Positions 2,169 to 15,011 of a stretch of 64,000 bases of DNA are shown piece by piece (the first letter of the stretch is position 1; each line of letters begins with the position of its first letter). The DNA is from Escherichia coli (GTDB lineage: Bacteria > Pseudomonadota > Gammaproteobacteria > Enterobacterales > Enterobacteriaceae): the NCBI RefSeq assembly GCF_965641715.1, contig NZ_OZ282453.1; one strand, 5' to 3'. The translations under genes were made by a program, and so were the position numbers. The notes under the pieces were generated by a model, which did no database searches, was not told the origin of the DNA, and saw nothing but the letters and a program-made list of their open reading frames with translations.

Positions 2169-3068
2169 ATGAAAATCGATCTTAATCTTTTACCCATTTT
2201 TATCGCGGTAGCAGAAGAAAGTAATTTTAGTAAAGCCGCCGCACGACTGGGCGTTACCCGTTCAGCGGTCAGTCAGGGAATAAGACGCCTTGAAGATGCA
2301 TTCGGGACAATGCTTGTAATGCGGACCACGCGCTCAGTTAATTTGACGGAAGCGGGAGAACGGCTGCATAAATCGTTGTCATTACCTTTATCCGGTATTG
2401 AGACAGCGTTCGAAGAGATGGTTTCTGATCATGTACCACGTGGACTTCTCAGAATCGCAGTGACGTCAATAGCTGAAGAATTTCTTTCAGGTCCGCTAAT
2501 CGCTTCGTTTGCAGCAGCCAATCCAGCCGTTACGCTTGATATTGTTGTCACGGATGAGGAATTCGATATCGTGGCCGCAGGTTACGATGCTGGCGTAAGG
2601 CTCGGAGAGGTCATTGAAAAAGACATGATTGCTGTGCCCCTTACCGGCAGTCAGCGTGAAATGGTCGTTGCCTCTCCCTCCTATCTCGCAGCCAACAGCA
2701 CACCTGTTCATCCGCGTGAACTTGTGAATCATAAGTGTATCGGCTGGCGTCAGTCCCCGGAGGTTGCGCCTTATCGCTGGCCATTTGAAGAAAACGGGAG
2801 AGCTTTCGACCTTGCGATTGAACCGCAGATTACGACTAATGATCTGCGTCTGATGTTGAGGCTGGCTCTTGCCGGCGGAGGAATAACAATTGCCACTCAG
2901 GAAACTTTCAGGCCGTATATTGAAAGCGGTAAGCTTGTATCTCTGCTTGATGACTTTCTTCCACAATTTCCGGGCTTCTATCTGTATTTCCCACAGCGTC
3001 GCAATATTGCACCAAAGCTCCGCGCCCTGATTGACCACGTCAAGGAATGGCGGCAGCAATTGGCTTAA
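2169..3068 (+). CDS. LysR-type transcriptional regulator
   Basis: N-terminal HTH (FSKAAARLGVTRSAVSQGIRRLE) and LysR substrate-binding domain; divergent from the SDR gene. Confidence 0.85.
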   Translation: MKIDLNLLPIFIAVAEESNFSKAAARLGVTRSAVSQGIRRLEDAFGTMLVMRTTRSVNLTEAGERLHKSLSLPLSGIETAFEEMVSDHVPRGLLRIAVTSIAEEFLSGPLIASFAAANPAVTLDIVVTDEEFDIVAAGYDAGVRLGEVIEKDMIAVPLTGSQREMVVASPSYLAANSTPVHPRELVNHKCIGWRQSPEVAPYRWPFEENGRAFDLAIEPQITTNDLRLMLRLALAGGGITIATQETFRPYIESGKLVSLLDDFLPQFPGFYLYFPQRRNIAPKLRALIDHVKEWRQQLA

Positions 3069-3193
3069 ATGTCTGCACCTGCATTGCCTGATGTCAGAAC
3101 AGTATTTTGATTAATTGCCAGGGTTACAATGGCATAAATACGGCACAGGAGGAAACGTGGTGTATTTAAATATGGGGTAACTACTTGATTTAA

Positions 3194-3211
3194 ATGGTGC
3201 CGATAATAGGA
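3194..3211. repeat. attR of P4-like satellite: 18-bp direct repeat (atggtgccgataatagga) of the thrW 3' end
   Basis: identical 18-mer at 14821..14838 inside the tRNA-Thr 3' end. Confidence 0.6.
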
Positions 3212-3391
3212 ATAAAATAAAACAATAACATACTGAAAAATATACAAAAAAGAAACACACCGTTAAGTAATGCCCCCGAAAATGCCCCCATAATAGATGC
3301 CGCAGTAAGTCGACTTGTCCCAAGGACTGGTAAGTAATGTCAATAGCGGGAACAAAGAGACATTACTTACCGAGAATGGAATCCATTTAGG

Positions 3392-4621
3392 TTATGCTGG
3401 CCAATCCCACTGCTGATAGGCAGAGAATAGGCGCGTGAGCTCAGCAGGCGCAAGAATATCAACAATATTAGCTCTGTAGCTATGCGATTTACCTAATGGA
3501 ACATTTTCGAAATGATTAGCTTGATAAGGATTAAAATCGTGAAGCTCACCTAATGTTGAGATATCGGTATTAATAGTTTTAAGCCAAGAAACAAGAATTA
3601 CTTTTGCCCCTGTTCTCTGTATGTAAGCTCTTGCCGATTCAAAACTATAGCCTCGAGTTGTTATATCATCTATAAGAAGTACTGTTTTACCAGGGCCTAA
3701 AGGTGGTTTTTTATAGGTAGTTCTAGGATTTCTGTGTGGCTGAGAATTAAGACAAATTGTATTAAGTTGATTGCAATGGTCAATTGCAACTCCCTCATTT
3801 CTTGCTTTTTGAGATTTTTTGGAAGTCGTATGCCTTAAAATAAGATCTGGGATATACGTCTTGCGAAAACATTTTCCAAATATTGAAATCGCTTCATCCA
3901 TGATATTATTCCCATATCCTTGCTTATGCCCTGGATAAACACTAACATAATTAATCATCTTATGAATGCCACTAAAATAGAGACTGGATATTAAGGCACT
4001 CGTCCAAAATTCAGGATGGCCTAATCCATGTTTAGCAGCAGCACGAGCATCTTCAGAGTAAAGAGTATACTCTTCCTTCATGGTGCTGAAAGGAGCAAGT
4101 GCATAGAAATTAAAATCACCATCGTGAATTTCATGACACCAAAGATGCTCTCTTAAACAGAAGGTATCTATAAATCTAGCAATATCTTTAGGGGTTGAAA
4201 ACTCGAAACCATAATCTGTTTTGTCTGCCCACCATGTAGCTCTTAAAAAGAGCAACTCACCATTAACTGCTGTTTGCATGTCGTTTATCGAAGCACCAAT
4301 GTACAAAGTTTCTGTACTTTCCCAACCCATCAAATCAAGGACATATTTTGTAGCATCCGCAGTTGGCTTCCCTGGAATGCTCTTATCTTTCGCTCGACAA
4401 AGATATTTAAATTCTCCCCAATGCTTTTGTAACACATCCTCTAAAGGGGTTCTTTCATCTCCGACAACCCAACCCCTGTTAGTGAATACAACAAACTCGA
4501 TCTTTTTAGTTCTGAAATATCTAATTAATTTATCTACCTCTGCAAAGATTTCGCTATCGATCTTTCCCTTAGGCACAAGAATATCTTCAACACTAAGAAT
4601 CACACCCTTAATTTTGCTCAT
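3392..4621 (-). CDS. satellite cargo: protein with N-terminal Rossmann-like (possibly degenerate HAD-like) domain and C-terminal type I phosphoribosyltransferase domain; ShosT-like candidate
   Basis: PRTase signature VLLIDDITTRG near C-terminus; N-terminal YIGASINDMQTAVNG resembles HAD motif IV; AT-rich; 10-nt gap to upstream gene. Confidence 0.55.
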   Translation of the reverse strand: MSKIKGVILSVEDILVPKGKIDSEIFAEVDKLIRYFRTKKIEFVVFTNRGWVVGDERTPLEDVLQKHWGEFKYLCRAKDKSIPGKPTADATKYVLDLMGWESTETLYIGASINDMQTAVNGELLFLRATWWADKTDYGFEFSTPKDIARFIDTFCLREHLWCHEIHDGDFNFYALAPFSTMKEEYTLYSEDARAAAKHGLGHPEFWTSALISSLYFSGIHKMINYVSVYPGHKQGYGNNIMDEAISIFGKCFRKTYIPDLILRHTTSKKSQKARNEGVAIDHCNQLNTICLNSQPHRNPRTTYKKPPLGPGKTVLLIDDITTRGYSFESARAYIQRTGAKVILVSWLKTINTDISTLGELHDFNPYQANHFENVPLGKSHSYRANIVDILAPAELTRLFSAYQQWDWPA

Positions 4622-4631
4622 TTCATCTTCC

Positions 4632-5696
4632 TTAGAGATCTAAGCTCTGCTGTATCGGCTGTGCTTTTAAATCATGATTATTATTCAAAATATAATTACT
4701 CATCTCATTCAATTCAAAAGGCATTAAAAAAGATAAAGAATTTCTATTTTCTTCAGCAAACTTCAATTCTGGTCTACTTTCATACGTAGTAGGAAGATAT
4801 GGACTCGCTATCTTTTTTGCATACTTAAAAGCATAATCAACAGTATGTGATGTTCCACTTTTAATATTCCATTCGACTGGTATTAGTGAATCACATAAAG
4901 CAGCCTGGATTCTGTTACGCCTTACAAAATTTTCTGCGCTATATGTTTGTTCAGGTAGATACTCGGTAACGATAGCCCCACCATTAGAAACTATTGCTCG
5001 ATATAACTCTTTAGAACCTTTCGGATACTCGACAAAAATCCCATTACCCAATACCGCAATAGTTGGAATGCCATATCTCAGCGATTCATAATGACAACAT
5101 TGATCTATTCCTGTCGCCAAACCACTGACTGTTGAAACATCTTTAGAATATAGAGAAGAAACAATCAGTTTTACTAGAAAAATACCATCATCCGTTGGCT
5201 TTCGTGTCCCCACAATTGCAACAGATTTCTTATTAAGAAGTTCATAATTACCATGAACAAAAATCCAAAATGGCGGATCGCTTATGTTCTTTAATGATTG
5301 AGGAAATGTAGCCTGATCATAAAAGGTGAGCACAATACCATTTTTATTGAGTTCACGAGCTCTCTCCAGTCCCTTAGACCAAAGGTCTTGTTGAAATGTT
5401 TCCCAAGATATATTTTTAGGCAAGGAAACTCTTAGATATCCTGCCAAGGCATCAGCTGTATTATCTTTTAATATATTCTTAAATCCAATTTTGGATTGAT
5501 AGATTTTGCGAAGCGTCCAGTAACCAACCCCCTTTAGACAAGTTAAGGCAAGAAACGCAATAATTTCATTTTTCCAAAACTCTCTAACTTCAGTGTAATC
5601 TTTATATTCCATTTTACGTTTGCCTTTTAGATTACAACCCGTACTCAACACAAAAAATTTAGAAAATTGTTGCCAAAAGCATATTATAAATAGCAT
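4632..5696 (-). CDS. satellite cargo: DprA/Smf-like (SLOG-type Rossmann) protein; ShosA-like candidate; probable start at MEYKDY (5612)
   Basis: DprA core motifs VAIVGTRKPT, GLATGID, TIAVLGNGI, YPKGSKELYRAI, FVRRNRIQAAL; AT-rich. Confidence 0.55.
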   Translation of the reverse strand: MLFIICFWQQFSKFFVLSTGCNLKGKRKMEYKDYTEVREFWKNEIIAFLALTCLKGVGYWTLRKIYQSKIGFKNILKDNTADALAGYLRVSLPKNISWETFQQDLWSKGLERARELNKNGIVLTFYDQATFPQSLKNISDPPFWIFVHGNYELLNKKSVAIVGTRKPTDDGIFLVKLIVSSLYSKDVSTVSGLATGIDQCCHYESLRYGIPTIAVLGNGIFVEYPKGSKELYRAIVSNGGAIVTEYLPEQTYSAENFVRRNRIQAALCDSLIPVEWNIKSGTSHTVDYAFKYAKKIASPYLPTTYESRPELKFAEENRNSLSFLMPFELNEMSNYILNNNHDLKAQPIQQSLDL

Positions 5697-5980
5697 CTTA
5701 CCGCAGATTTGTGAAGCAACAACATCCCTAGGAGAAACCTTAACCTAGCGGGACAACTTACTGACCAATCCTCAGCTAGCTCATTGAATTGCCCCCATAT
5801 CGCACAGCCCCGCACGCCTGCCCGCTTCGCTTAACAGACTGGTTTTCATGCACCTCATAAATCGTCTCAGAAGCCACCAAACAAGGGCTTTCTCGTCAAA
5901 AATGGTGCATAAGACTCATGCGTTTTCATGCGCCATAGACATGCACTCATGCGCTCTCAGGCCAGCCAGGGAAAAGGTGT

Positions 5981-6005
5981 TAAAAATCCCGGTACTCGAC
6001 CGGGA
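5981..6005 (-). terminator. Rho-independent terminator downstream of delta/ogr-like gene
   Basis: stem tcccggtactcgaccggga followed by U-run on the minus-strand transcript. Confidence 0.5.
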
Positions 6006-6027
6006 TTACGTAGGCGTTTTTTTCTAA

Positions 6028-6309
6028 TCAGACAGGAATCTGCTGACGGCTTGACAGTTTTGACGCGGAGCCATAGCGATTGAGCGTTTGCTGTTGTTTT
6101 ACCGGGGTTTGTGATTTGTCTGGTTCCTGTTCATTGCGCCGGGGTTTCATGATTATCTTATCCACACTCTCCAGTGCCGTAAATGTGCAGGAACATTCCA
6201 GATTCTGGCACTGATACCACGAGCGTTTAACTGACGGAGCTTCATAGGCTGCTGTTCTGGCGTGTGCAACTGTACCGCATTCCGGACATTTAAGTGCCAT
6301 TAATATCAC
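6028..6309 (-). CDS. Ogr/Delta-family zinc-finger late transcription activator
   Basis: CPECG...HARTA...YQCQNLECSCTF matches the Ogr/Delta C4 zinc-finger pattern. Confidence 0.8.
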   Translation of the reverse strand: MILMALKCPECGTVAHARTAAYEAPSVKRSWYQCQNLECSCTFTALESVDKIIMKPRRNEQEPDKSQTPVKQQQTLNRYGSASKLSSRQQIPV

Positions 6310-6857
6310 TCCTGTATATCGTTAATGTCATTCAGGCGTTGCTGAAAACGCAGATGTTGTGCCGGGGTGTAAGAGCCCTGGCAATCACGAATCATACTGG
6401 GGTCAGGCATCAAACCGGATTCATCCAGGATCTCACGATAATCCCCGGCAATTTCAGGCGGTGTTATTGCCAGCTGGCGAACCAGAGCACTGCGTAATAT
6501 ACGGGACGCAACGTCAACCCCTCCGCGCCCCTTCAGGAACGGAGCCAGTGCAGATGTCAGGGCTGCCCCATTCGCCTGCATAAAATTGCTGAGAGCGGCT
6601 TCTGTGCAGGCCTCCATCAGTAAATGCTGCGAGTAAATGCATTCGCGCGCAGCACAGTTAATTTGCCATTTCAGCACATCCAGACGTTCCCGCAGGAATT
6701 CGAGCTGTCGGGCATAATCTGCTGGTTTTTCTGTGGCAGCGAGGAGAGATGTTATCTGTTGTTCAACGGCTTTTCGGCTCTCACTATGTCTGGCCCACAG
6801 AATACGGGCATTCCGAAAACTGGTAAGTACCTGGTCAGGTGTGCCTCGGGCCGTCAT
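6306..6857 (-). CDS. psu: Psu-like (polarity suppression / capsid decoration) protein
   Basis: 183 aa, recalled similarity to P4 Psu (KWQ.N.AA, FMQ.NGAAL.SALAP, FTPAQ); translationally coupled to sid and delta. Confidence 0.55.
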   Translation of the reverse strand: MTARGTPDQVLTSFRNARILWARHSESRKAVEQQITSLLAATEKPADYARQLEFLRERLDVLKWQINCAARECIYSQHLLMEACTEAALSNFMQANGAALTSALAPFLKGRGGVDVASRILRSALVRQLAITPPEIAGDYREILDESGLMPDPSMIRDCQGSYTPAQHLRFQQRLNDINDIQE

Positions 6858-7597
6858 ACTGCTTTCTCCTTCTCAGCAAGTTCCTGACGAACCTTTATTT
6901 TATGCATAGCTGCTGGAGAGAGTTGATTACTGAAATCCAGACGCGCCGCATAATCCGGGGCAACTCCCGCCAGTTTAAACACCGGGTCCTGTTCAGGCAT
7001 CGCATCGTTAGCCAGAGCCGGTCTGGTGATATGTTTATGAATAAAGTCTTTCAGCACTGTGTCCGGGTCATTAACTGAATTCACCACACCCACAACGGCA
7101 CTGGCTTCCCGGCCCATTGTGGATTTAAGCAGGCTCAGCGTCTGAATAAGCGCTTTTCCATGCGACTGCATAAAATCCTCCCAGATTTGTTTTGCGCGAA
7201 TATCCACAAGAATGTTATGCGCGTGGATATACTTTCCGGCTAATTCCGCAGCTTTCTGCGGCAAAAGTGCATTTTCGCTTTCCTGAGCCGCCAGCAGCTC
7301 ATCAAAATCCTCAAGCGTTTCTCGTCCCAGCGCAATTTCCGTGCGCAGTTTTTTCATTTCCTTTGAGACCACGCCCTGACTTTCACGAAACAGCGTGCGC
7401 CACTCCTCATTCAGTGTATTCGTCGTGGATTCCATTTCAGCGCGACGCTGGCGGATTGTCGCAATATTATCCGCTGCCGCTTTCTGCTGACGACGTGCTT
7501 CAAGCCATGCGTTTCTGGCTGTGTTCATGGTTTCCAGTGCCCGCTGCGTTACAGCCGGAAAAGTGGAAAGGTTGTTATTCACTGCGGTGTTGTTCAT
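6854..7597 (-). CDS. sid: Sid-like capsid size-determination (external scaffold) protein
   Basis: 247 aa helical protein first in the late operon upstream of psu/delta, size and position as P4 Sid. Confidence 0.5.
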   Translation of the reverse strand: MNNTAVNNNLSTFPAVTQRALETMNTARNAWLEARRQQKAAADNIATIRQRRAEMESTTNTLNEEWRTLFRESQGVVSKEMKKLRTEIALGRETLEDFDELLAAQESENALLPQKAAELAGKYIHAHNILVDIRAKQIWEDFMQSHGKALIQTLSLLKSTMGREASAVVGVVNSVNDPDTVLKDFIHKHITRPALANDAMPEQDPVFKLAGVAPDYAARLDFSNQLSPAAMHKIKVRQELAEKEKAV

Positions 7598-7631
7598 GAC
7601 TTCTCCTGTCGGGTTGGTTCGTTACGTCAAT

Positions 7632-7687
7632 TGTGTCGTGGCTGACACAAGCACACTATCGGTGCTCAGTGTGTGGTGGCTGGCACA
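7632..7687 (-). promoter_or_regulatory. Two TGT-N12-ACA dyads (Ogr/Delta-type activator sites) upstream of sid
   Basis: TGT(7632-7634)-N12-ACA(7647-7649) and TGT(7670-7672)-N12-ACA(7685-7687), 35-90 bp upstream of sid start. Confidence 0.45.
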
Positions 7688-7775
7688 ACGGGCGCTTGCG
7701 GTTATTCAGACGTGGCTATGAAAGCCAGCCAGATAAAAATGCCCACTGTTTCAGTCTGCTTTATGTCCCTGATGC

Positions 7776-7964
7776 GGTGGAACAGGTGAAACATGTGTTA
7801 CAGCTTTGTTTTATAAATCATTTATATACACTGCACCGGTGGAACATCGCGGGTAACAAGGTGGAACAGCGGATTGGCTGGCGTTACATCTGTTCCACCT
7901 CACTATTTCAGAAGGTGGAACAGGTTCAGCCCCTGTAAAATACGGTTGTTCCACCTGTTTCACC
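7776..7964. repeat. Iteron cluster: 6 perfect GGTGGAACA/TGTTCCACC 9-mers plus 2 variants in both orientations (crr/ori-like)
   Basis: copies at 7776, 7838, 7860, 7891(inv), 7914, 7947(inv); variants at 7785 and 7956; directly downstream of primase gene. Confidence 0.55.
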
Positions 7965-7998
7965 TGTTACCCTTAATAAATAAGACTCACGCAAAGCC

Positions 7999-10671
7999 TT
8001 AACCCGGCACCTCGCTGTTGAAGACATAGAGCCTGCGGGGATTCATCTCTGGCGGGCGAATGGTTGTCTGGAGTTTGCCATCAGTGGAGGGCAGCAGGTA
8101 TCCACGATCTGCGCACAGACGCGCCACCTTGCGCGGGTCAAATCCCCTGCAGATTTCTTTCCAGCCGGACGGCATGACATAAAACGTAGTGACAGCTTCC
8201 GTGCCCTGCGCGGTACTGCCTTTCTCCACCCTGCGCCAGCCCACCATATTGGCGGGGCGGTTGCGCTCGTCATACCAGTCTGCAAAGCGGCTGTACTGAT
8301 TCGCGGTAAAGAAACTGCGAACCTGCTCCAGTGCGGCGATATCTTCCTGATTGGCGGTGTGCCCGCGCTCTTTCAGCCATGCGTTCAGGCAGACGCGGGT
8401 TGCCCGCAATGCTTCACCCTCAGGCCAGCCGGTGATACCCTGACGGGTTGCCAGTTCACCTGCCATCGCCACCAGTGCAAAGCGGTTCACAGCCCGGCCC
8501 ACCTGATTGCCTGCATCTTTCGGAGTCAGGGCGGCAGCATATTCCTTCATCAGCGATTTTGCCTGTGCCGTTAGTCCGTTAAGATCAGCGGTCAGTGCTT
8601 TCAGCCACTCCCGGAACGGCGAACCGTAGTAGCAGGACGTGGCCCATTCAAGATGCTCTGCCAGAGCCTTGCCGCTGTCGAAGCCGTGCAGCTCCTCAAA
8701 AACGCCAAACTTCCCGGAATCGCTGGGGATCTGGATCATCCTGACTTCCATCCCGGCAAAAGTACGCTCACCGGCCTTTGCCGCATGTTCGGTCAGAGAT
8801 AACTCGCCAGTTGAAAAGAACAACAGGCGCCACTGCTTACGGGTACGCAGTTCACCGTCCGTACCGGCACGACCCTTGCCCTGACCGTTTGCCAGCATGT
8901 AGGCGATATTGCCTGCCTCGCGTCCGTCAACTTCCCGGATCTCATCAAGCATCATGGCGGCATCGTTGCGGCGGCTGGCACATCCCTCCAGCGCGTTGCC
9001 GGTGGCCCGCCATGTCTGCCAGTAGTCAGGCCCGCCGCAGACGGAGGTTGCCGCTTTCATGGTGGTGGTCTTACCGTCTGTCGATTCCCCTTTGAGGTGG
9101 TAGCCGCCGCCGTCCATACCAACCAGCCGTAACAGTGGTGCAGCAAAGGCCAGGCTGACAGCAAATGCCACGCGGGAGTTGCCGGTACAGTAGCGGGATA
9201 CGTTCTCCCGCCATTCCTCTGTTGTGCCCGACACGCGGAAATCACGCCCCTGCACGGAAGTGGTCTGGAGAATGACACCCTCTGCACCTTCACCGCTGAC
9301 CTCATCCTGCAGGACGTAAACCTGACCATGCCAGCCAGTACGGCTGACGCAGGTCACGCGACGTTCCGGTTTACACAGTGAGATATATTCCATCAGGCGT
9401 GCGCGTGCCTCACCGGTGGTGCTGATATAAGACAGCCCGTTAACAAGCAGTACCCGGCGCAGTTCCTCACCACTGCCGCTCAGCATTTCCATCGGCATCG
9501 CCCAGCGGCGACGCTCACCCCACGTATCTTCCCATTCCAGCAGTCGTCCGAAGTTACCGCCATCGGCATCGCAGGTGATTGCCGTCACGCGCAGCGGGCT
9601 GCATATTTTGACGTTCTGGATCTCCGTCTCACCGTTGCGCTGTACCTGCTTTTCATACCAGAGATATTCCTGGGTAAGACGGAACCCGTGCGGCAGTTGC
9701 GTGCGGCCTTCCCCGCACAGTACCAGACCGTTGCGAAAGGCTTCACGGGCACGGGTAATACCGTGCTCCCGATGAAAGTCATTCCAGTCAGCCTTAATCT
9801 CTCCTGGTGGCAGCGTCATCCAGCCGCCAACAGCTTTTGCCGCCCGTTCAGCAAAGGCTCTGCCGGGATTCTCCCCCCCGTCCTGAAAATCGTTATCACC
9901 GGCGATGATAATTTTTACCTCAGGCCAGCGTGCCCGCAGCGACTGCGCCACATTGGGCAGGTTGCCCGCAGATATGGCAGCCACTACGCATCCGGCAGTG
10001 AGCTGGCTTACCGTCAGCGCCGTAGCGTAACCTTCGGTAATCACCACCTGTACCGGTGGTTCAGACGGTAACGGGCTGAGCGACACAAACGCGCCTTTCA
10101 TCGTGCTGCCGGGCAGTATGCTTTTTTCACCCGTCGGGGCGATAAGCTGTGCACCGGTCACGGCTCCGGTGTTGGTCGTGAGTGGTAACAGCAGGGAACC
10201 AGCAGGAAAATCCTTACCGCTGATATGCTGCACGCTTCCGGTCAGAGAGGCCGGGTATCCGGCGAACCCTTTTCCTGCCAGATAGGCACTTTCTCCCGTG
10301 TGGCTCTCTTTCATCAGCGTCGCCACGGTAAGGCTCATGTCGCGTTTAGGGGCTTTTTGTCTGGCAGGCTTAACAGGCAGTTCCTGCACATCCGGCACAT
10401 TAAGCACCTGCGCCACCTGCTGCGCAGCCTTTCTGACGTTGTAGCCGGTTACGAGCTTAACCAGATCCAGACCGTCACCATTGCCACACTGGCTGCAGAT
10501 CCACGTCCCGCGCCCGTCAAGGTCATCGAGGCGAAAACGATCCTTGCCCCCACATTTCGGGCAGGGACCGTGCCTGCCGTTTTCAGGTACATCAATACGC
10601 AGCATATGCAGAATAACGGGCCATTTCCCCCGCGCGGCGGCTGAAATCTGCGTAACCGTCTGTATTGTCAT
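7999..10671 (-). CDS. P4 alpha-like primase/helicase (zinc finger + toprim + D5-type NTPase)
   Basis: N-terminal CPKCGG...CSQCG, Walker A GESTDGKTT, 890 aa. Confidence 0.8.
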   Translation of the reverse strand: MTIQTVTQISAAARGKWPVILHMLRIDVPENGRHGPCPKCGGKDRFRLDDLDGRGTWICSQCGNGDGLDLVKLVTGYNVRKAAQQVAQVLNVPDVQELPVKPARQKAPKRDMSLTVATLMKESHTGESAYLAGKGFAGYPASLTGSVQHISGKDFPAGSLLLPLTTNTGAVTGAQLIAPTGEKSILPGSTMKGAFVSLSPLPSEPPVQVVITEGYATALTVSQLTAGCVVAAISAGNLPNVAQSLRARWPEVKIIIAGDNDFQDGGENPGRAFAERAAKAVGGWMTLPPGEIKADWNDFHREHGITRAREAFRNGLVLCGEGRTQLPHGFRLTQEYLWYEKQVQRNGETEIQNVKICSPLRVTAITCDADGGNFGRLLEWEDTWGERRRWAMPMEMLSGSGEELRRVLLVNGLSYISTTGEARARLMEYISLCKPERRVTCVSRTGWHGQVYVLQDEVSGEGAEGVILQTTSVQGRDFRVSGTTEEWRENVSRYCTGNSRVAFAVSLAFAAPLLRLVGMDGGGYHLKGESTDGKTTTMKAATSVCGGPDYWQTWRATGNALEGCASRRNDAAMMLDEIREVDGREAGNIAYMLANGQGKGRAGTDGELRTRKQWRLLFFSTGELSLTEHAAKAGERTFAGMEVRMIQIPSDSGKFGVFEELHGFDSGKALAEHLEWATSCYYGSPFREWLKALTADLNGLTAQAKSLMKEYAAALTPKDAGNQVGRAVNRFALVAMAGELATRQGITGWPEGEALRATRVCLNAWLKERGHTANQEDIAALEQVRSFFTANQYSRFADWYDERNRPANMVGWRRVEKGSTAQGTEAVTTFYVMPSGWKEICRGFDPRKVARLCADRGYLLPSTDGKLQTTIRPPEMNPRRLYVFNSEVPG

Positions 10672-11051
10672 ACTTCCCCCTGATACAACGTCACACCAGT
10701 ACTGCAGAAGTCATCAAAGGTCGCCGGAAGCGTGCGGTACATCTCCGCCATTACTTCACAGCCGCGCGCGGTCAGTACCGGCGGCGCGGTCAGCAGTGAC
10801 GGCTCCAGCATGTCAGTCAGCAGTGCCAGCGCGGCAGCGGCGCCCTGTGCTTCGCCGTACTCGTTAATCAGTGCGCACTCGATATGCAGCGCAATGGCCA
10901 TTTCAATACGCTCCACCGTCAGGCTGTGCGGACCATACTGATCACTGCCAGTTTCGTTCAGCATTTTCTGCCGCCATGCTGAAGCAATAGCCCGCCGGTA
11001 AAGCGCGGTTGTCATTTCTGCCGGGAAAATGGAAACCTGCGGCTGGTTCAT
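10668..11051 (-). CDS. hypothetical satellite protein
   Basis: ORF translationally coupled (4-nt overlap) to primase gene. Confidence 0.4.
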   Translation of the reverse strand: MNQPQVSIFPAEMTTALYRRAIASAWRQKMLNETGSDQYGPHSLTVERIEMAIALHIECALINEYGEAQGAAAALALLTDMLEPSLLTAPPVLTARGCEVMAEMYRTLPATFDDFCSTGVTLYQGEV

Positions 11052-11332
11052 CTGGCACCTCCTTCAATCAGTGCACAGCTGTGCGCAATATCCGTCAAAT
11101 CTGCCCGCAGGTACTCCATCAGCGCGGCGACACCATGCGCACAGCCAGCGTCCAGTGCTCCGGCCTGAGACGGGTATTCAGAAAAGAGAAGCTGGAGCAT
11201 GTCGCAGGCATTTCTTGCGCGGGTCAGCTTTCCGAAACTGTCCTCTGACAACCCATAGGCAAAAGCACCGGTATTGTGTTTTTCAGGCAAAGTGTGGCCC
11301 TGAGCACCGTTGTGCCCGTTTGAAATATTCAT
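11048..11332 (-). CDS. hypothetical satellite protein
   Basis: ORF coupled by 4-nt overlap to downstream gene. Confidence 0.35.
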   Translation of the reverse strand: MNISNGHNGAQGHTLPEKHNTGAFAYGLSEDSFGKLTRARNACDMLQLLFSEYPSQAGALDAGCAHGVAALMEYLRADLTDIAHSCALIEGGAR

Positions 11333-11363
11333 CGTGGATTACTCCGTTTTCAGCGGTATTTTG

Positions 11364-11724
11364 TCAGAGAAACTTTGAATAGTGACCGTCGTCAGGCTCA
11401 GCAGAACGCCGTATGCTACGCTCCCGCCAGCGGATAAATAGCACAGACGGATGCAGTGTCAGCGGGCCGGAACCACTACCGCCTGCAGGAGCTGGTGCAG
11501 GCTTAAAGAGCGGTACATCAAACAGGCGCGTATACCGCTGTTCAAACCATGCCAGAGGGCAGGAAGAAAGCTGGTTGTCGCTGTCATGACGTATCAGCAC
11601 TTCACAGCTGAATTCAGGATTAACCAGCGCCACAGAGGGCGAGGCTTCAATTAATCGGATAATCGTGACCGTCCAGCCACGTTCATGCTGCCAGCGTTCG
11701 CCGGGGTGCGGATAATTACGCATG
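11364..11724 (-). CDS. hypothetical satellite protein (start MRNYPHPG at 11724)
   Basis: start ATG overlaps stop of upstream small ORF (ATGCGTAA). Confidence 0.35.
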
Positions 11725-11892
11725 TTCACCTCCGCAGGGAATGCGCCCGGCAAAGCTCAGTACATAATCCGGGGCAAGTCTTCGCCGCGCTGACCGCTCG
11801 TTATCTGCGGTGATCCTTAACATCACAGGACGGGCATTGCGTTGACTGCGGTTGATCGCCGCAAATAACCAGGTACACTTCTGTTTAGCCAT
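11716..11892 (-). CDS. small protein, possibly host cell division inhibitor Icd-like (58 aa)
   Basis: hand-translated MAKQKCTWLFAAINRSQRNARPVMLRITADNERSARRRLAPDYVLSFAGRIPCGGEHA; below the 60-aa cutoff of the ORF track. Confidence 0.35.
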   Translation of the reverse strand: MAKQKCTWLFAAINRSQRNARPVMLRITADNERSARRRLAPDYVLSFAGRIPCGGEHA

Positions 11893-11983
11893 CTTCGTTA
11901 CCTCTTATAACGGTTGGTTAAATGCCCGATTTGTGTTCCCGCACAATCGGGCATTGCTTTTACAAGCGAACTATACTTACAAT

Positions 11984-12027
11984 GGTAATTACCATGTAGT
12001 CATCATATTCCAGGGTAATTACCATGT
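11984..12027. promoter_or_regulatory. Tandem operator-like repeats GGTAATTACCATGT (each containing palindrome GGTAATTACC), 30 bp apart
   Basis: copies at 11984-11997 and 12014-12027; second overlaps the ATG of the small + strand ORF. Confidence 0.45.
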
Positions 12028-12197
12028 CAACACCACAAGAGAAACGTTCCCCACCATTCCAAATGCGTCTTACCGACGATTTTAGGTTGCAACTCGAAAA
12101 AGAAATGCGCAAAGATGGAGATAGCGCGTTGGCAACTTGGATTAAAAGAATTTTACGTAAAGAACTACAATCACGCGGGATTGACCCTAAAGGTTAA
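12024..12197 (+). CDS. small ribbon-helix-helix-like DNA-binding protein (57 aa)
   Basis: hand-translated MSTPQEKRSPPFQMRLTDDFRLQLEKEMRKDGDSALATWIKRILRKELQSRGIDPKG; strand-helix-helix pattern; only + strand gene in the satellite. Confidence 0.4.
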   Translation: MSTPQEKRSPPFQMRLTDDFRLQLEKEMRKDGDSALATWIKRILRKELQSRGIDPKG

Positions 12198-12229
12198 TCA
12201 GTTAAATATTACTAACTATCAATTAAGGC

Positions 12230-12520
12230 TTAGGGAGTAGGTGATAATCTATTCCCTTTATTAATTGCTCTTGCCTTATTTCTCATCCCCTCAAACTGTT
12301 GACCTGAGTTTTCTTCAAACCCATCTCGCCACTTATAATAATCAGCAGCGCGCCATCGGGACATCCGACCTATTTTTATAGGTTTTGGAAAGCGATTCAG
12401 AGAAATCAATCGATAAATCCATTTGTCACTTAATAAACAATCGGAAGTAATAAACTTCATATCGATCAGAGAATCCATTGAAGGTCGTTGCAAAGTAGTA
12501 TTATCATGTTTAGATAACAT
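12230..12520 (-). CDS. alpA: AlpA-family phage transcriptional regulator
   Basis: KFITSDCLLSDKWIYRLISLNRFPKPIKIGRMSRWRAADYYKWRDGF matches AlpA-type HTH proteins. Confidence 0.7.
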   Translation of the reverse strand: MLSKHDNTTLQRPSMDSLIDMKFITSDCLLSDKWIYRLISLNRFPKPIKIGRMSRWRAADYYKWRDGFEENSGQQFEGMRNKARAINKGNRLSPTP

Positions 12521-12645
12521 TCATCATTCTCCGTTTATCTAAGTCTATTGGCTTCAACACGGAAAATTAAAACATAGGTTATAAATGAGAAAAATGTGAC
12601 TAATGAAAAAAATCCAAAATCATTAGTCACAATAATTGTTAACAT

Positions 12646-13470
12646 TTAGTTAAACTTAATGTTTTTCATGCAACTACGTAGCAAGCTAACAACAGTATCA
12701 TAGCTCAAAGGTGGTTCTCCGGTCTTAGGCCAGAACTCACTGGCATGTTGAAAAAGATAATCAGCTATCGCTGCTGGACTCTCTCTTCTTAGCCTCATAT
12801 CACGATGATAGAGCGAAATAATAGCCATGAGTATTTCAGTTCGAGGAACAGCATGTTTTTGTTTTTGCGCCTCAGATTGTGATTTATATTTATTGGCGTT
12901 TTTTATCCGTTTTTGTTCGCATAAGACTATATCAATGAATTTTTGAATCTGTACCTTTGTAATCCACAAAACCTCAAAAAGATAATAATTTTCTTTTTCA
13001 TCATAATTTACATAAAGAATTACCTTACAATTTATATTAGGCGTACCCGCCAGTAGAAAATGAATAGGCCAGGAATCCGGTTGCCCCTCATGCTTAACTA
13101 ACAGATCTTTATATTCATAATCAACAGCCCATAAACCGGATATAAAGCATCGAATAAAACCATTTTTATCAATTAAATTATTTTCATCAGGGATTCTTAT
13201 AGAGCTTAAGTCTGACAACATAATATTGCCATTTCTATCTCGTGGTAAATATTTCAGATTAGATAAGAACTCATCCAGTTGACCATCAATCTTCAAACCA
13301 CATGAAACATCATACTCATCATCATGGAATTCCATGCATAGCTCTACATCTCGTTCTCTGGCAAACCAGAGTATATCCTTTTCACTACAACCAATTTTTT
13401 CTGAAGCTTCATCCAACTGGTAGTAATCTCTGAGCAGAGAATCAGTATTATTAATTTTTAAAATATTCAT
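12646..13470 (-). CDS. hypothetical AT-rich protein of unknown function, translationally coupled to integrase
   Basis: 274 aa; ATGA start/stop overlap with int; low GC relative to flanks; no motif recognised. Confidence 0.4.
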   Translation of the reverse strand: MNILKINNTDSLLRDYYQLDEASEKIGCSEKDILWFARERDVELCMEFHDDEYDVSCGLKIDGQLDEFLSNLKYLPRDRNGNIMLSDLSSIRIPDENNLIDKNGFIRCFISGLWAVDYEYKDLLVKHEGQPDSWPIHFLLAGTPNINCKVILYVNYDEKENYYLFEVLWITKVQIQKFIDIVLCEQKRIKNANKYKSQSEAQKQKHAVPRTEILMAIISLYHRDMRLRRESPAAIADYLFQHASEFWPKTGEPPLSYDTVVSLLRSCMKNIKFN

Positions 13471-14726
13471 TTATGAGTACCAATTAGCTCAGATAAATAA
13501 TTAGCATACCATTGCATCATTTCTCTTCTCCCTTCGAGATATTGGGCATGGTTATAAATTCCACGAATAGAGTTTTTGTCCGAATGAGCAAGCTGGGTTT
13601 CAATCCAAGCGCTGTTAAATCCTTTCTCATGTAGAATTGTACTCATCGTATGCCTGAAACCATGTCCCGTAACACGCCCTGCATATCCAATACGTTTAAA
13701 CACCTGATTGATGCTTGCTTCACTCATAAATTTGCTAGGATCGTTGCGTCCAGGGAACATCAGCGGGTAGTTCCCAGTTAGTTCTTTCAAACTTTTGAGA
13801 TGGGATAATGCTTGTTTTGGTAACGGGACAATATGGCTCCTACGCATTTTCATACGTTCTTTTGGGATCTCCCACACCGCATTATCAAAATCCACCTCTC
13901 GCCACTCACCTGCTCGTAGTTCTCCAGTTCGTAGACCTGTCAGGATAAGTAAATGCGCCCCCAACAATACAATTGGACTTCCTGAATAAGAATTAAGGGC
14001 ATTAAAGAACTCCGGTAGTTCGTTGGCTTTGAGGAATGGATAGTGGACTGCTTCATGTCCTTGCATCGCACTGGCAAGATCCGGTGCCGGATTGTAGATT
14101 GCCCTACCCGTTACGATGGCATAGCGAAAAACTTCACCGCATCGCTGACGGACTTTCTTCGCTTTCTCCATAGCGCCTCGAGCTTCTATCAACCTCAGAA
14201 CTTCAAGCAGTTCAAGGGGCTGAATATCAGCTATAGGTCTGTGCCCAATATGCGGAAAAATGTCTTTCTCAAATGCCTCAATGATGTCGGAAGCATAGCC
14301 CTCAGACCATTTGGATGATTTCATTTTGTGCCACTCTAACGCCACTTCTCTGAATGGGTTAAGTGTCTCAATCGCTGCGTTTAAAGCCTGCTTTTTGGCT
14401 TTTTTGACTTCGCCGGGATCTTCACCTGCTGCGAGTAGTTTCTTTGCGTCTTCTCGTTTTTGTCTGGCATCAGCAAGTGTGACTGTTGGATAAACACCAA
14501 AGGACAATCGTTTCTCTTTACCAGCAAAACGGTATTTCATACGCCAGTAACGCGAGCCATTAGGTTCGACCTGAAGGTATAGGCCACCTCCATCAAACAG
14601 CTTATAGCTCTTCTCTTTTCCTTTCGCAGCTTCAACCTTGCGGGCATTCAGCATCATTGGGGGCACATTTCCTAGACCGAACAGAACATGCCCCTGATTG
14701 TGCCCCCAACCGCGTGTTGATTTCAA
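13467..14726 (-). CDS. int: P4-type tyrosine integrase (probable start at MLNARKV, 14654)
   Basis: KEKSYKLFDGGGLYLQVEPNGSRYWRMKYRFAGKEK N-terminus and C-terminal HGFRHT...Y catalytic region; adjacent to tRNA-Thr. Confidence 0.9.
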   Translation of the reverse strand: MKSTRGWGHNQGHVLFGLGNVPPMMLNARKVEAAKGKEKSYKLFDGGGLYLQVEPNGSRYWRMKYRFAGKEKRLSFGVYPTVTLADARQKREDAKKLLAAGEDPGEVKKAKKQALNAAIETLNPFREVALEWHKMKSSKWSEGYASDIIEAFEKDIFPHIGHRPIADIQPLELLEVLRLIEARGAMEKAKKVRQRCGEVFRYAIVTGRAIYNPAPDLASAMQGHEAVHYPFLKANELPEFFNALNSYSGSPIVLLGAHLLILTGLRTGELRAGEWREVDFDNAVWEIPKERMKMRRSHIVPLPKQALSHLKSLKELTGNYPLMFPGRNDPSKFMSEASINQVFKRIGYAGRVTGHGFRHTMSTILHEKGFNSAWIETQLAHSDKNSIRGIYNHAQYLEGRREMMQWYANYLSELIGTHK

Positions 14727-14820
14727 GAGACAAGGGTTGACCTCAAACGTATGAAAACAACGTAATATATATGTTTTTAAATGATTTTGTTGATGTGGGT
14801 TGACTTGGGAAAACTAGGTG

Positions 14821-14838
14821 ATGGTGCCGATAATAGGA
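14821..14838. repeat. attL core: 18 bp at thrW 3' end, repeated at 3194..3211
   Basis: exact 18-mer match. Confidence 0.6.
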
Positions 14839-14897
14839 GTCGAACCTACGACCTTCGCATTACGAATGCGCTGCTCTACCAACTGAGCTATATCGGC
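14822..14897 (-). tRNA. thrW: tRNA-Thr (anticodon CGU)
   Basis: reverse complement reads GCCGATATAGCTCAGTTGGTAGAGCAGCGCATTCGTAATGCGAAGGTCGTAGGTTCGACTCCTATTATCGGCACCA. Confidence 0.9.
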
Positions 14898-15011
14898 CCT
14901 GAAAGGACATGTTCACGAACGTGAATCACGGTGGACAAGGGTAAAACTAACCGGGCGATGCGTCAATGGCCTTGTGAATCAAATGGCTACTTTTGCATCA
15001 CCCGGTTTTAT

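What the first reader, a model, noticed from the sequence alone, without database searches (positions are those of the whole stretch)
7776..7964. Dense iteron cluster (GGTGGAACA) between the primase gene and sid
Six perfect 9-mers plus two one-base variants in both orientations within 190 bp, immediately 3' of the alpha-like primase/helicase gene. P4 has short iterons bound by alpha at its origin and cis replication region, so this is a candidate replication control site.
Basis: partly seen in the sequence, partly recalled or inferred. Interest (0 to 1): 0.45.

Follow-up and report, generated by a model that had tools for sequence, protein, structure and literature searches.

The report
Replication origin of a P4-like satellite
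The repeated 9-base motif is real and is most likely the replication origin of a P4-like satellite prophage in E. coli, built like the origins of staphylococcal and Gram-negative phage-inducible islands; it is a useful annotation but not a new kind of system.

Summary
GGTGGAACA occurs six times exactly, plus two GGTGAAACA variants, at 7776-7964. Only one other exact copy lies in the 64 kb, where 0.43 are expected by chance.

The cluster starts 26 nt after the stop of an 890-aa primase-helicase gene and ends about 180 nt before a sid homologue. It lies inside a P4-like satellite prophage at tRNA-Thr.

The protein is a hybrid. Its first 320 residues resemble the P4 alpha primase domain. The rest is a DUF927 helicase with a C-terminal winged-helix region, like SaPIbov1 Rep and SCCmec Cch.

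The iterons flank a 40-bp AT-rich stretch (about 20% GC). There is no second cluster in the element.

Across 42 related loci from seven genera and metagenomes, the same layout follows the gene. The iteron sequence changes in concert by lineage, giving at least seven classes. Within the E. coli-type class, iteron bases vary far less than spacer bases (p = 9e-6).

Best reading (confidence 0.8): this is the satellite's single origin, bound by the C-terminal domain of its own initiator-helicase, SaPI/PICI-style, not P4's bipartite ori plus crr. Binding and replication remain untested.

Novelty: new member of a known kind.

The parts
7776..7972 (-). The whole iteron array, proposed as ori. Read on the gene (-) strand the order is: 3 direct copies, 1 inverted, 2 direct, 3 inverted, the AT-rich stretch, then 2 inverted.
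   Evidence: The same positions and orientations recur in Escherichia, Pantoea, Yersinia, Xenorhabdus and Proteus relatives.
7947..7972 (-). Three contiguous direct copies on the gene strand: GGGTAACA (degenerate), GGTGAAACA (7956-7964) and GGTGGAACA (7947-7955). The first begins 26 nt after the primase stop.
7914..7922 (+). Exact iteron GGTGGAACA, inverted relative to the gene strand.
7882..7899 (-). Exact iteron (7891-7899) followed by a degenerate copy GATGTAACG (7882-7890). In relative L004 the second copy is GGTGGAACG.
7838..7868 (+). Exact iterons at 7860-7868 and 7838-7846, with a degenerate GGGTAACA at 7851-7858 between them.
7789..7829 (.). AT-rich stretch, lowest 40-nt GC 0.20-0.225. 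Proposed DNA-unwinding element.
7776..7793 (+). Two contiguous iterons on the far side of the AT-rich stretch: GGTGGAACA and GGTGAAACA.
7999..10671 (-). Gene for the 890-aa primase-helicase-initiator. Domains: Zn_Ribbon_Prim (residues 32-68), Toprim_3 (209-304), DUF927 (330-612), then a C-terminal helical region plus winged helix (640-890).
8002..8241 (-). Coding region for residues 811-890, the predicted winged helix-turn-helix: beta-hairpin 811-832, helices 834-840 and 846-855, wing strands 869-871 and 879-884. Proposed iteron reader.
   Evidence: inference
7724..7739 (-). Conserved box TTTTTATCTGGCTGGC, 37 nt beyond the last iteron. It is present in nearly all lineages, in two related circular plasmids and next to the P4 ori. 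Its function is unknown.
7632..7687 (-). Two TGT-N12-ACA boxes (7670-7687 and 7632-7649) resembling the Delta/Ogr sites of P4 Psid. Probable late promoter of sid; not part of the origin.
   Evidence: The spacing and the ACAATT end match P4 9495-9542.
6854..7597 (-). sid homologue, the gene downstream of the array.

Best explanation
The array at 7776-7972 is the single vegetative replication origin of a P4-like satellite prophage. The 890-aa protein encoded just upstream combines primase, hexameric helicase and initiator functions. Its C-terminal winged-helix domain is proposed to read the 9-bp iterons. Protein assemblies on the two iteron sets would then melt the roughly 40-bp AT-rich stretch between them. 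The helicase would load itself there, and the N-terminal Zn-ribbon/Toprim domain would prime DNA synthesis. This is the rep-ori layout of SaPIs and Gram-negative PICIs, here joined to a P4-type primase domain and placed just upstream of the sid late promoter. What is shown: the motif, its enrichment, its position, its conservation, its lineage-specific concerted change, and the fold of the protein. What is inferred: binding, melting, loading and priming.
Against: No binding or replication data exist for this protein or site. No single residue separates the iteron classes. The excess of substitutions in the winged helix at iteron switches is only suggestive: 5 of 31-40 differences against 0 of 32-33 in same-class Xenorhabdus pairs, but 11 of 95 in another same-class pair. 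Primases 97% identical (L015 and L017) have different iterons, so another factor could contribute to recognition. A small fast-evolving gene upstream also diverges in those pairs. The iterons directly flanking the AT-rich stretch all point the same way, whereas SaPI descriptions stress opposed sets. No natural small plasmid carrying this exact allele was found.
Confidence: 0.8

Rival explanations
1. It is an accessory cis-acting replication or copy-control element like P4 crr, or like handcuffing iterons, and the true origin lies elsewhere in the element.
For: P4 crr sits in the equivalent place, directly 3' of alpha, and holds the same kind of iterons as the P4 ori. Iteron arrays in plasmids also titrate initiators.
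Against: No second iteron cluster exists in the 12-kb element or in the flanks of 41 of 42 related loci. The cluster itself contains the AT-rich stretch expected of an origin. The initiator belongs to the SaPI Rep/Cch family, whose origin lies directly 3' of the gene (PMC9371898).
Confidence: 0.07
2. It is an origin, but the iterons are read by something other than the C-terminal winged helix. Candidates are the Zn-ribbon of the primase domain or a small co-evolving protein encoded upstream.
For: Near-identical primases have different iterons. Many of their differences lie in residues 1-205. The small gene just upstream diverges about 29% between L015 and L017.
Against: The fold and family precedent point to the C-terminal domain (PMC9371898). 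The upstream small protein shows no DNA-binding signature and sits where a P4 epsilon-like anti-repressor would be, which also evolves fast. It is not conserved across all lineages that have iterons.
Confidence: 0.08
3. It is an operator array that controls the sid late promoter or read-through from the primase operon, bound by Delta/Ogr, the AlpA-like regulator or another regulator.
For: It lies about 90 nt upstream of two Delta/Ogr-type boxes. In P4 the ori also abuts Psid.
Against: The iterons do not form TGT-N12-ACA sites. The array tracks the primase gene, not the downstream gene, which differs among lineages. The iteron sequence changes with the primase lineage. No terminator was found.
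Confidence: 0.04
4. It is a chance or selfish short repeat with no function.
For: None beyond the lack of experimental data.
Against: The shuffle test, purifying selection on the iteron bases, and a conserved layout with concerted sequence change across genera.
Confidence: 0.01

Closest known systems
SaPI replication module (SaPIbov1 Rep and its ori; Ubeda et al. 2007, as summarised in PMC9371898 and PMC7581432)
   Same: The initiator-helicase has the same DUF927/MCM-like core and the same C-terminal fold. The origin lies immediately 3' of the gene. It consists of 6-12 short iterons in both orientations around a central AT-rich region. Iteron sequence is allele-specific.
   Different: The host is Gram-negative and the element is P4-like (sid, psu, delta). 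The primase is fused and is P4 alpha-type Zn-ribbon/Toprim. The iterons are 9 bp, often in contiguous 9-bp tandems, rather than 5-6 bp. The iterons next to the AT-rich stretch share one orientation.
Gram-negative PICI origin (EcCICFT073 pri-rep-ori, PMC6092414)
   Same: It is in E. coli. The ori lies directly after the replication gene, with contiguous 9-bp iterons (CTGTCTACC), an AT-rich stretch and inverted sets. It was shown experimentally to support plasmid maintenance.
   Different: Its Pri-Rep (584 aa) is not detectably related to this protein. The element is a lambda-type cos PICI, not a sid/psu/delta satellite.
Phage P4 ori and crr with alpha protein
   Same: The element type and the primase domain are shared (38% identity over 320 aa). 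The iteron is similar: GGTGAACA(G) in P4 against GGTGGAACA(G) here. P4 crr lies directly 3' of alpha, and the P4 ori lies about 170 nt upstream of sid with two Delta boxes in between. A CTGGCnnGCC-type box follows both origins.
   Different: P4 needs two separate clusters about 4.5 kb apart; this element has one. The P4 octamer is absent from the cluster. The P4 alpha helicase and C-terminal origin-binding domain are not homologous to this protein. There is no DNA similarity apart from int.
SCCmec Cch helicase (5dgk)
   Same: DUF927 helicase with a C-terminal HTH (Pfam HTH_56). The fold matches.
   Different: No comparable iteron origin has been defined for Cch. Cch has no fused primase.

Membership tests
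SaPI/PICI-type rep-ori module | The origin lies immediately 3' of the initiator-helicase gene. | tested here: met
   The first (degenerate) iteron starts 26 nt after the stop, and the array ends 222 nt after it. The same holds in 42 related loci.
SaPI/PICI-type rep-ori module | About 6-12 short iterons, present in both orientations. | tested here: met
   Six exact copies, two near-exact and three degenerate, on both strands.
SaPI/PICI-type rep-ori module | An AT-rich region with iterons on both sides. | tested here: met
   GC is 0.20-0.225 at 7789-7829. Two iterons lie on one side and six or more on the other.
SaPI/PICI-type rep-ori module | The initiator is a helicase of the Rep family with a C-terminal winged-helix DNA-binding domain. 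| tested here: met
SaPI/PICI-type rep-ori module | The iteron sequence is specific to the Rep allele. | tested here: inconclusive
   Seven iteron classes follow primase lineages. Mapping of specificity to the winged helix is only suggestive.
SaPI/PICI-type rep-ori module | Rep binds the iterons, and rep plus ori drive autonomous replication. | not testable with these tools
   This needs a gel-shift and a plasmid replication assay. The only indirect support is two circular plasmids with distant homologues and the same layout.
P4 alpha/ori/crr replication system | Type-1 octamer iteron GGTGAACA / TGTTCACC. | tested here: not met
   The window holds one copy, at 11723 and outside the cluster, which is chance level. 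The cluster uses a 9-mer with one extra base.
P4 alpha/ori/crr replication system | Two separate cis elements (ori and crr), both carrying iterons. | tested here: not met
   The element has a single cluster.
P4 alpha/ori/crr replication system | Alpha-type helicase and C-terminal origin-binding domain. | tested here: not met
   BLASTP similarity stops at residue 316. hhalign of the C-terminal profile against the alpha C-terminus gives probability 0.8%.
P4 alpha/ori/crr replication system | Alpha-type Zn-ribbon/Toprim primase domain. | tested here: met
   38% identity over 320 aa, E 3e-48. Pfam Zn_Ribbon_Prim and Toprim_3.
P4-like satellite (element level) | int, alpA-like gene, primase, sid, psu and delta in one roughly 10-kb island at a tRNA gene. 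| tested here: met
   However, no P2/P4 cos and no C4/CI RNA was detected.

The most novel reading that the evidence does not exclude
The family has diversified into at least seven orthogonal replicon specificities. All 8-12 iterons change in concert, accompanied by only a handful of substitutions in the recognition helix and wing of the C-terminal winged helix (residues ~846-887). The array layout stays fixed. This would let several satellites share a cell without cross-firing. Two Pantoea strains do carry two elements of different classes. Separately, a conserved box TTTTnTCTGGCnGGC lies 30-50 nt beyond the last iteron and is shared with the P4 ori, although the DNA-binding domains are unrelated. 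It may mark the priming or loading site used by the shared Zn-ribbon/Toprim primase domain.
Probability: 0.3. Interest if true: 0.55.

Novelty: new member of a known kind. Interest (0 to 1): 0.38.

Why it matters
This element type is in about 6% of complete E. coli genomes (325 of 5,426), yet its origin carries no annotated feature in the one RefSeq record examined. Placing the origin shows that many P4-like satellites do not replicate the P4 way. They use a compact SaPI/PICI-type rep-ori cassette fused to a P4-type primase domain, so replication modules have been exchanged between satellite families. The natural series of iteron classes, including primase pairs about 97% identical with different iterons, is a ready system for mapping how a winged-helix initiator changes DNA specificity. 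It also offers a starting point for building orthogonal mini-replicons. These are useful but incremental points; the kind of system is well known.

Tried and rejected
- DNA similarity: blastn of the region against 50,697 phage records found nothing. blastn of the whole of P4 against the element found only the 5' end of int. The P4 comparison therefore rests on layout, not DNA homology.
- Terminator: none was predicted in 7450-8100. The weak stem after the stop codon is no better than shuffled sequence (z -0.09).
- Single-stranded fold: the array folds strongly as ssDNA (z -6.3), but that follows trivially from inverted iterons.
- Delta/Ogr sites: the iterons do not form TGT-N12-ACA. The two true boxes lie downstream at 7632-7687, and such boxes are at chance frequency window-wide (16 against 15.6 expected).
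- Other checks: Rfam finds only the tRNA-Thr. No P2/P4 cos within 3 mismatches.
- Specificity residues: no alignment column separates the classes. The winged-helix enrichment is suggestive only.
- P4 alpha origin-binding domain: no relation by profile comparison, and it is absent from the top fold matches.
- Literature search for the iteron strings returned only primer sequences. Ziegelin 1993 is not held.
- Natural plasmids with this allele: one hit is a 655-kb record and another is a 7-kb linear 'plasmid 118' contig. Neither is informative.
- The CTGGCnGGC box as a marker of the P4-type primase domain: not universal. It is absent from the K. aerogenes plasmid, whose protein has that domain.

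Full report
**1. The observation**

Exact GGTGGAACA lies at 7776, 7838, 7860 and 7914 on the + strand and at 7891 and 7947 on the - strand. GGTGAAACA lies at 7785 (+) and 7956 (-).

The 64-kb window holds seven exact copies, against 0.43 +/- 0.70 in dinucleotide-preserving shuffles. No shuffle reached seven. Six of the seven fall within 189 bp. A degenerate pattern (GKKGDAACA) finds no other cluster. Three weaker copies extend the array to 7972: GGGTAACA at 7965-7972 and 7851-7858, and GATGTAACG at 7882-7890.

**2. Context**

The window is E. coli chromosome. The region matches 325 of 5,426 complete E. coli genomes at 90% identity or better.

It lies inside a roughly 12-kb island next to tRNA-Thr and proA. 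All the island's genes named below are on the - strand:
- integrase;
- an AlpA-like HTH gene;
- an Icd-like gene;
- DUF5375, which is P4 ORF106;
- an 890-aa 'TOPRIM and DUF927' protein (7999-10671);
- the iteron array;
- a Sid homologue (6854-7597; 24% identity to P4 Sid, E 7e-13);
- Psu;
- an Ogr/Delta-like protein;
- a ShosTA defence pair.

**3. The protein next door is a hybrid**

Only residues 1-316 resemble P4 alpha (38% identity, E 3e-48). BLASTP finds no significant similarity beyond that. Pfam finds Zn_Ribbon_Prim, Toprim_3 and DUF927.

The DUF927 core matches the SaPIbov1 Rep initiator-helicase (8tch) and SCCmec Cch (5dgk) by sequence.

Pfam HTH_56, the 'Cch helix turn helix domain', hits 5-9 of the 51 homologues. 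A profile comparison with the P4 alpha C-terminus finds nothing.

**4. Anatomy of the array**

Read on the gene strand, the order is:
- three contiguous direct copies, starting 26 nt after the stop;
- one inverted copy;
- two direct copies;
- three inverted copies;
- a roughly 40-bp AT-rich stretch (7789-7829, GC 0.20-0.225);
- two contiguous inverted copies.

Tandem copies abut at 9-bp spacing. No terminator is predicted between the primase gene and sid.

About 90 nt beyond the array lie two TGT-N12-ACA boxes (7670-7687 and 7632-7649). Their spacing and their ACAATT end mirror the two Delta sites of P4 Psid. They are the probable sid promoter and are distinct from the iterons.

**5. Comparative evidence**

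This is the strongest line of evidence. Searching one genome per species and IMG/VR with the protein gave 50 loci with 38-99% identical proteins. They come from Escherichia, Citrobacter, Enterobacter, Pantoea, Yersinia, Xenorhabdus, Proteus, Morganella and two metagenome bins.

Of the 43 loci where the primase gene could be called, 42 have an iteron array within 25-300 nt of the stop; the Buttiauxella locus L024 has none. Across those 42 loci there are 277 exact class 8-mers in that 310-nt zone and 8 in the remaining 335 kb. Six of those 8 belong to one locus with a duplicated origin.

The positions and orientations of the copies are nearly superposable between genera. The sequence, however, changes in concert by lineage:
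- GGTGGAACA, the window's class;
- GGTGTAACA;
- C/G-TGGTAACA;
- GGGTAACA;
- TGGGAACA;
- GGGGAACC;
- GGCGTTACA.

The array follows the primase gene whatever comes next, sid or an ogr/delta-like gene.

Within the window's class (15 distinct sequences), 4 of 72 iteron columns vary against 38 of 117 spacer columns (Fisher p 9e-6).

In Xenorhabdus, two elements share 93% nucleotide identity across the primase gene and about 90% beyond the array. Inside the array identity drops to 50-60%, and the elements carry different iterons.

More distant DUF927 proteins (about 33% identity) show the same grammar. Two are on circular plasmids, of 12 kb in E. coli and 22 kb in K. pneumoniae. Each has three contiguous GTTGGTTCA copies, an AT-rich stretch and then inverted copies. 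Other plasmids have other iterons.

**6. Which part of the protein reads the iterons?**

No alignment column separates the classes. Three independent class switches between close relatives all include substitutions at 846, 850, 861, 866, 867, 870, 878, 883 or 887. In the model these are the second helix of the HTH (846-855) and the wing strands.

In Xenorhabdus, pairs of different class have 5 of 31-40 differences in residues 834-887. Same-class pairs of equal divergence have 0 of 32-33. But another same-class pair has 11 of 95.

I treat this as suggestive only. A small fast-evolving gene upstream also diverges in the switch pairs. It sits where a P4 epsilon-like anti-repressor would be, which could explain its divergence without any link to the origin.

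**7. Mechanism proposed**

The array is the satellite's origin. The C-terminal winged helices of the hexameric initiator-helicase bind the iterons on both sides of the AT-rich stretch. The stretch melts, the helicase loads itself, and the fused Toprim domain primes.

This is the published model for SaPI Reps: 6-12 iterons immediately downstream of rep, a central AT-rich region, a winged-helix domain in the C-terminal domain, and ATP-independent binding and melting (PMC9371898, PMC7581432). It is also the organisation reported, and functionally tested, for Gram-negative PICIs (PMC6092414).

I fetched the EcCICFT073 origin. It has contiguous CTGTCTACC 9-mers right after a Pri-Rep that is not homologous to this protein.

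Every step after 'the sites exist, are conserved and co-vary with the protein lineage' is inference.

**8. Comparison with P4**

In P4, crr lies directly 3' of alpha. The ori, with GGTGAACA repeats at 9310-9413, lies about 170 nt upstream of sid, about 4.7 kb from crr.

In this element the primase operon and the sid operon are co-linear, so one intergenic region occupies both positions, and it holds the only cluster. The P4 octamer itself is absent from the cluster. The bipartite requirement, the alpha-type helicase and the alpha origin-binding domain are all not met.

I therefore file the site under the SaPI/PICI-type rep-ori module rather than the P4 alpha/ori/crr system, although the element as a whole is P4-like.

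**9. Rivals**

- A crr-like accessory site with the origin elsewhere. There is no other cluster, and the AT-rich stretch is inside this one.
- Recognition by another domain or protein. This remains possible.
- A promoter operator array. The array tracks the primase gene, not the downstream gene.
- Chance repeats. These are excluded by the shuffle test, the selection test and the comparative layout.

**10. Verdict**

It needs correcting on the protein family and on the role, which is probably the origin itself. It is a new, previously unannotated member of a well-known kind of origin.

Interest is moderate to low. The most interesting by-products are the natural series of iteron specificities and an unexplained conserved box shared with the P4 ori.

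Noticed in passing
window 7724-7739 (- strand); also P4 (L002) 9464 (+) and 8733 (-); L055 6680; L057: A conserved box TTTTnTCTGGCnGGC lies 30-50 nt beyond the last iteron in nearly all lineages, whatever the iteron class or the downstream gene. It also lies next to the P4 ori and near P4 P_LE. It is absent from some distant relatives (L056, L058, L059). Its function is unknown; it could be a priming or loading site, or a regulator site.
   Followed up: partly
window 3392-5696 (- strand): The satellite's cargo after delta is a ShosTA defence system: ShosA, DprA-like, at 4632-5696 and ShosT, a phosphoribosyltransferase, at 3392-4621. PADLOC E-values are about 1e-90.
   Followed up: partly
window 3000-15000: The element has sid, psu and delta. 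No P2/P4-type cos lies within 3 mismatches, and there is no Rfam C4/CI antisense RNA. Only the 5' end of int is DNA-similar to P4. Its packaging site and its immunity system are therefore unidentified.
   Followed up: partly
window 7632-7687: Two TGT-N12-ACA boxes lie 38 bp apart just upstream of sid, ending in ACAATT as in P4 Psid. They are the likely Delta/Ogr-activated late promoter.
   Followed up: partly
L037 (IMG/VR), 743-904 nt after the primase stop: This locus carries a second complete iteron set, a tandem duplication of the origin region.
   Followed up: no
L005 and L012 (Pantoea stewartii CCUG 26359); L007 and L014 (Pantoea sp. AS-PWVM4): Two strains each carry two elements of this family with different iteron classes (A+B and B+C). 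This is compatible with selection for non-cross-reacting replicons. Against that, some E. coli genomes hold two copies of the same class.
   Followed up: no
L053 6250-6490; P4 9310-9413; window 7776-7972: The iterons of three unrelated DNA-binding domains share the shape CTGT-n(2-3)-ACC: EcCICFT073 CTGTCTACC, P4 CTGTTCACC and the window CTGTTCCACC. Whether this is coincidence, convergence or retained origin DNA is undetermined.
   Followed up: no
L015-L018, 600-2200 (upstream of the primase): The Xenorhabdus and Proteus elements with this primase encode proteins of about 335 aa and about 175 aa upstream that the E. coli element lacks. They have an ogr/delta-like gene, not sid, after the origin. 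They are a different satellite architecture sharing the same replicon.
   Followed up: no
window 11048-11332 (- strand): A 94-aa protein (phrog_14861, unknown function) two genes upstream of the primase evolves much faster than its neighbours: about 60% identity where the primase is 90%. It may be an epsilon-like anti-repressor.
   Followed up: no
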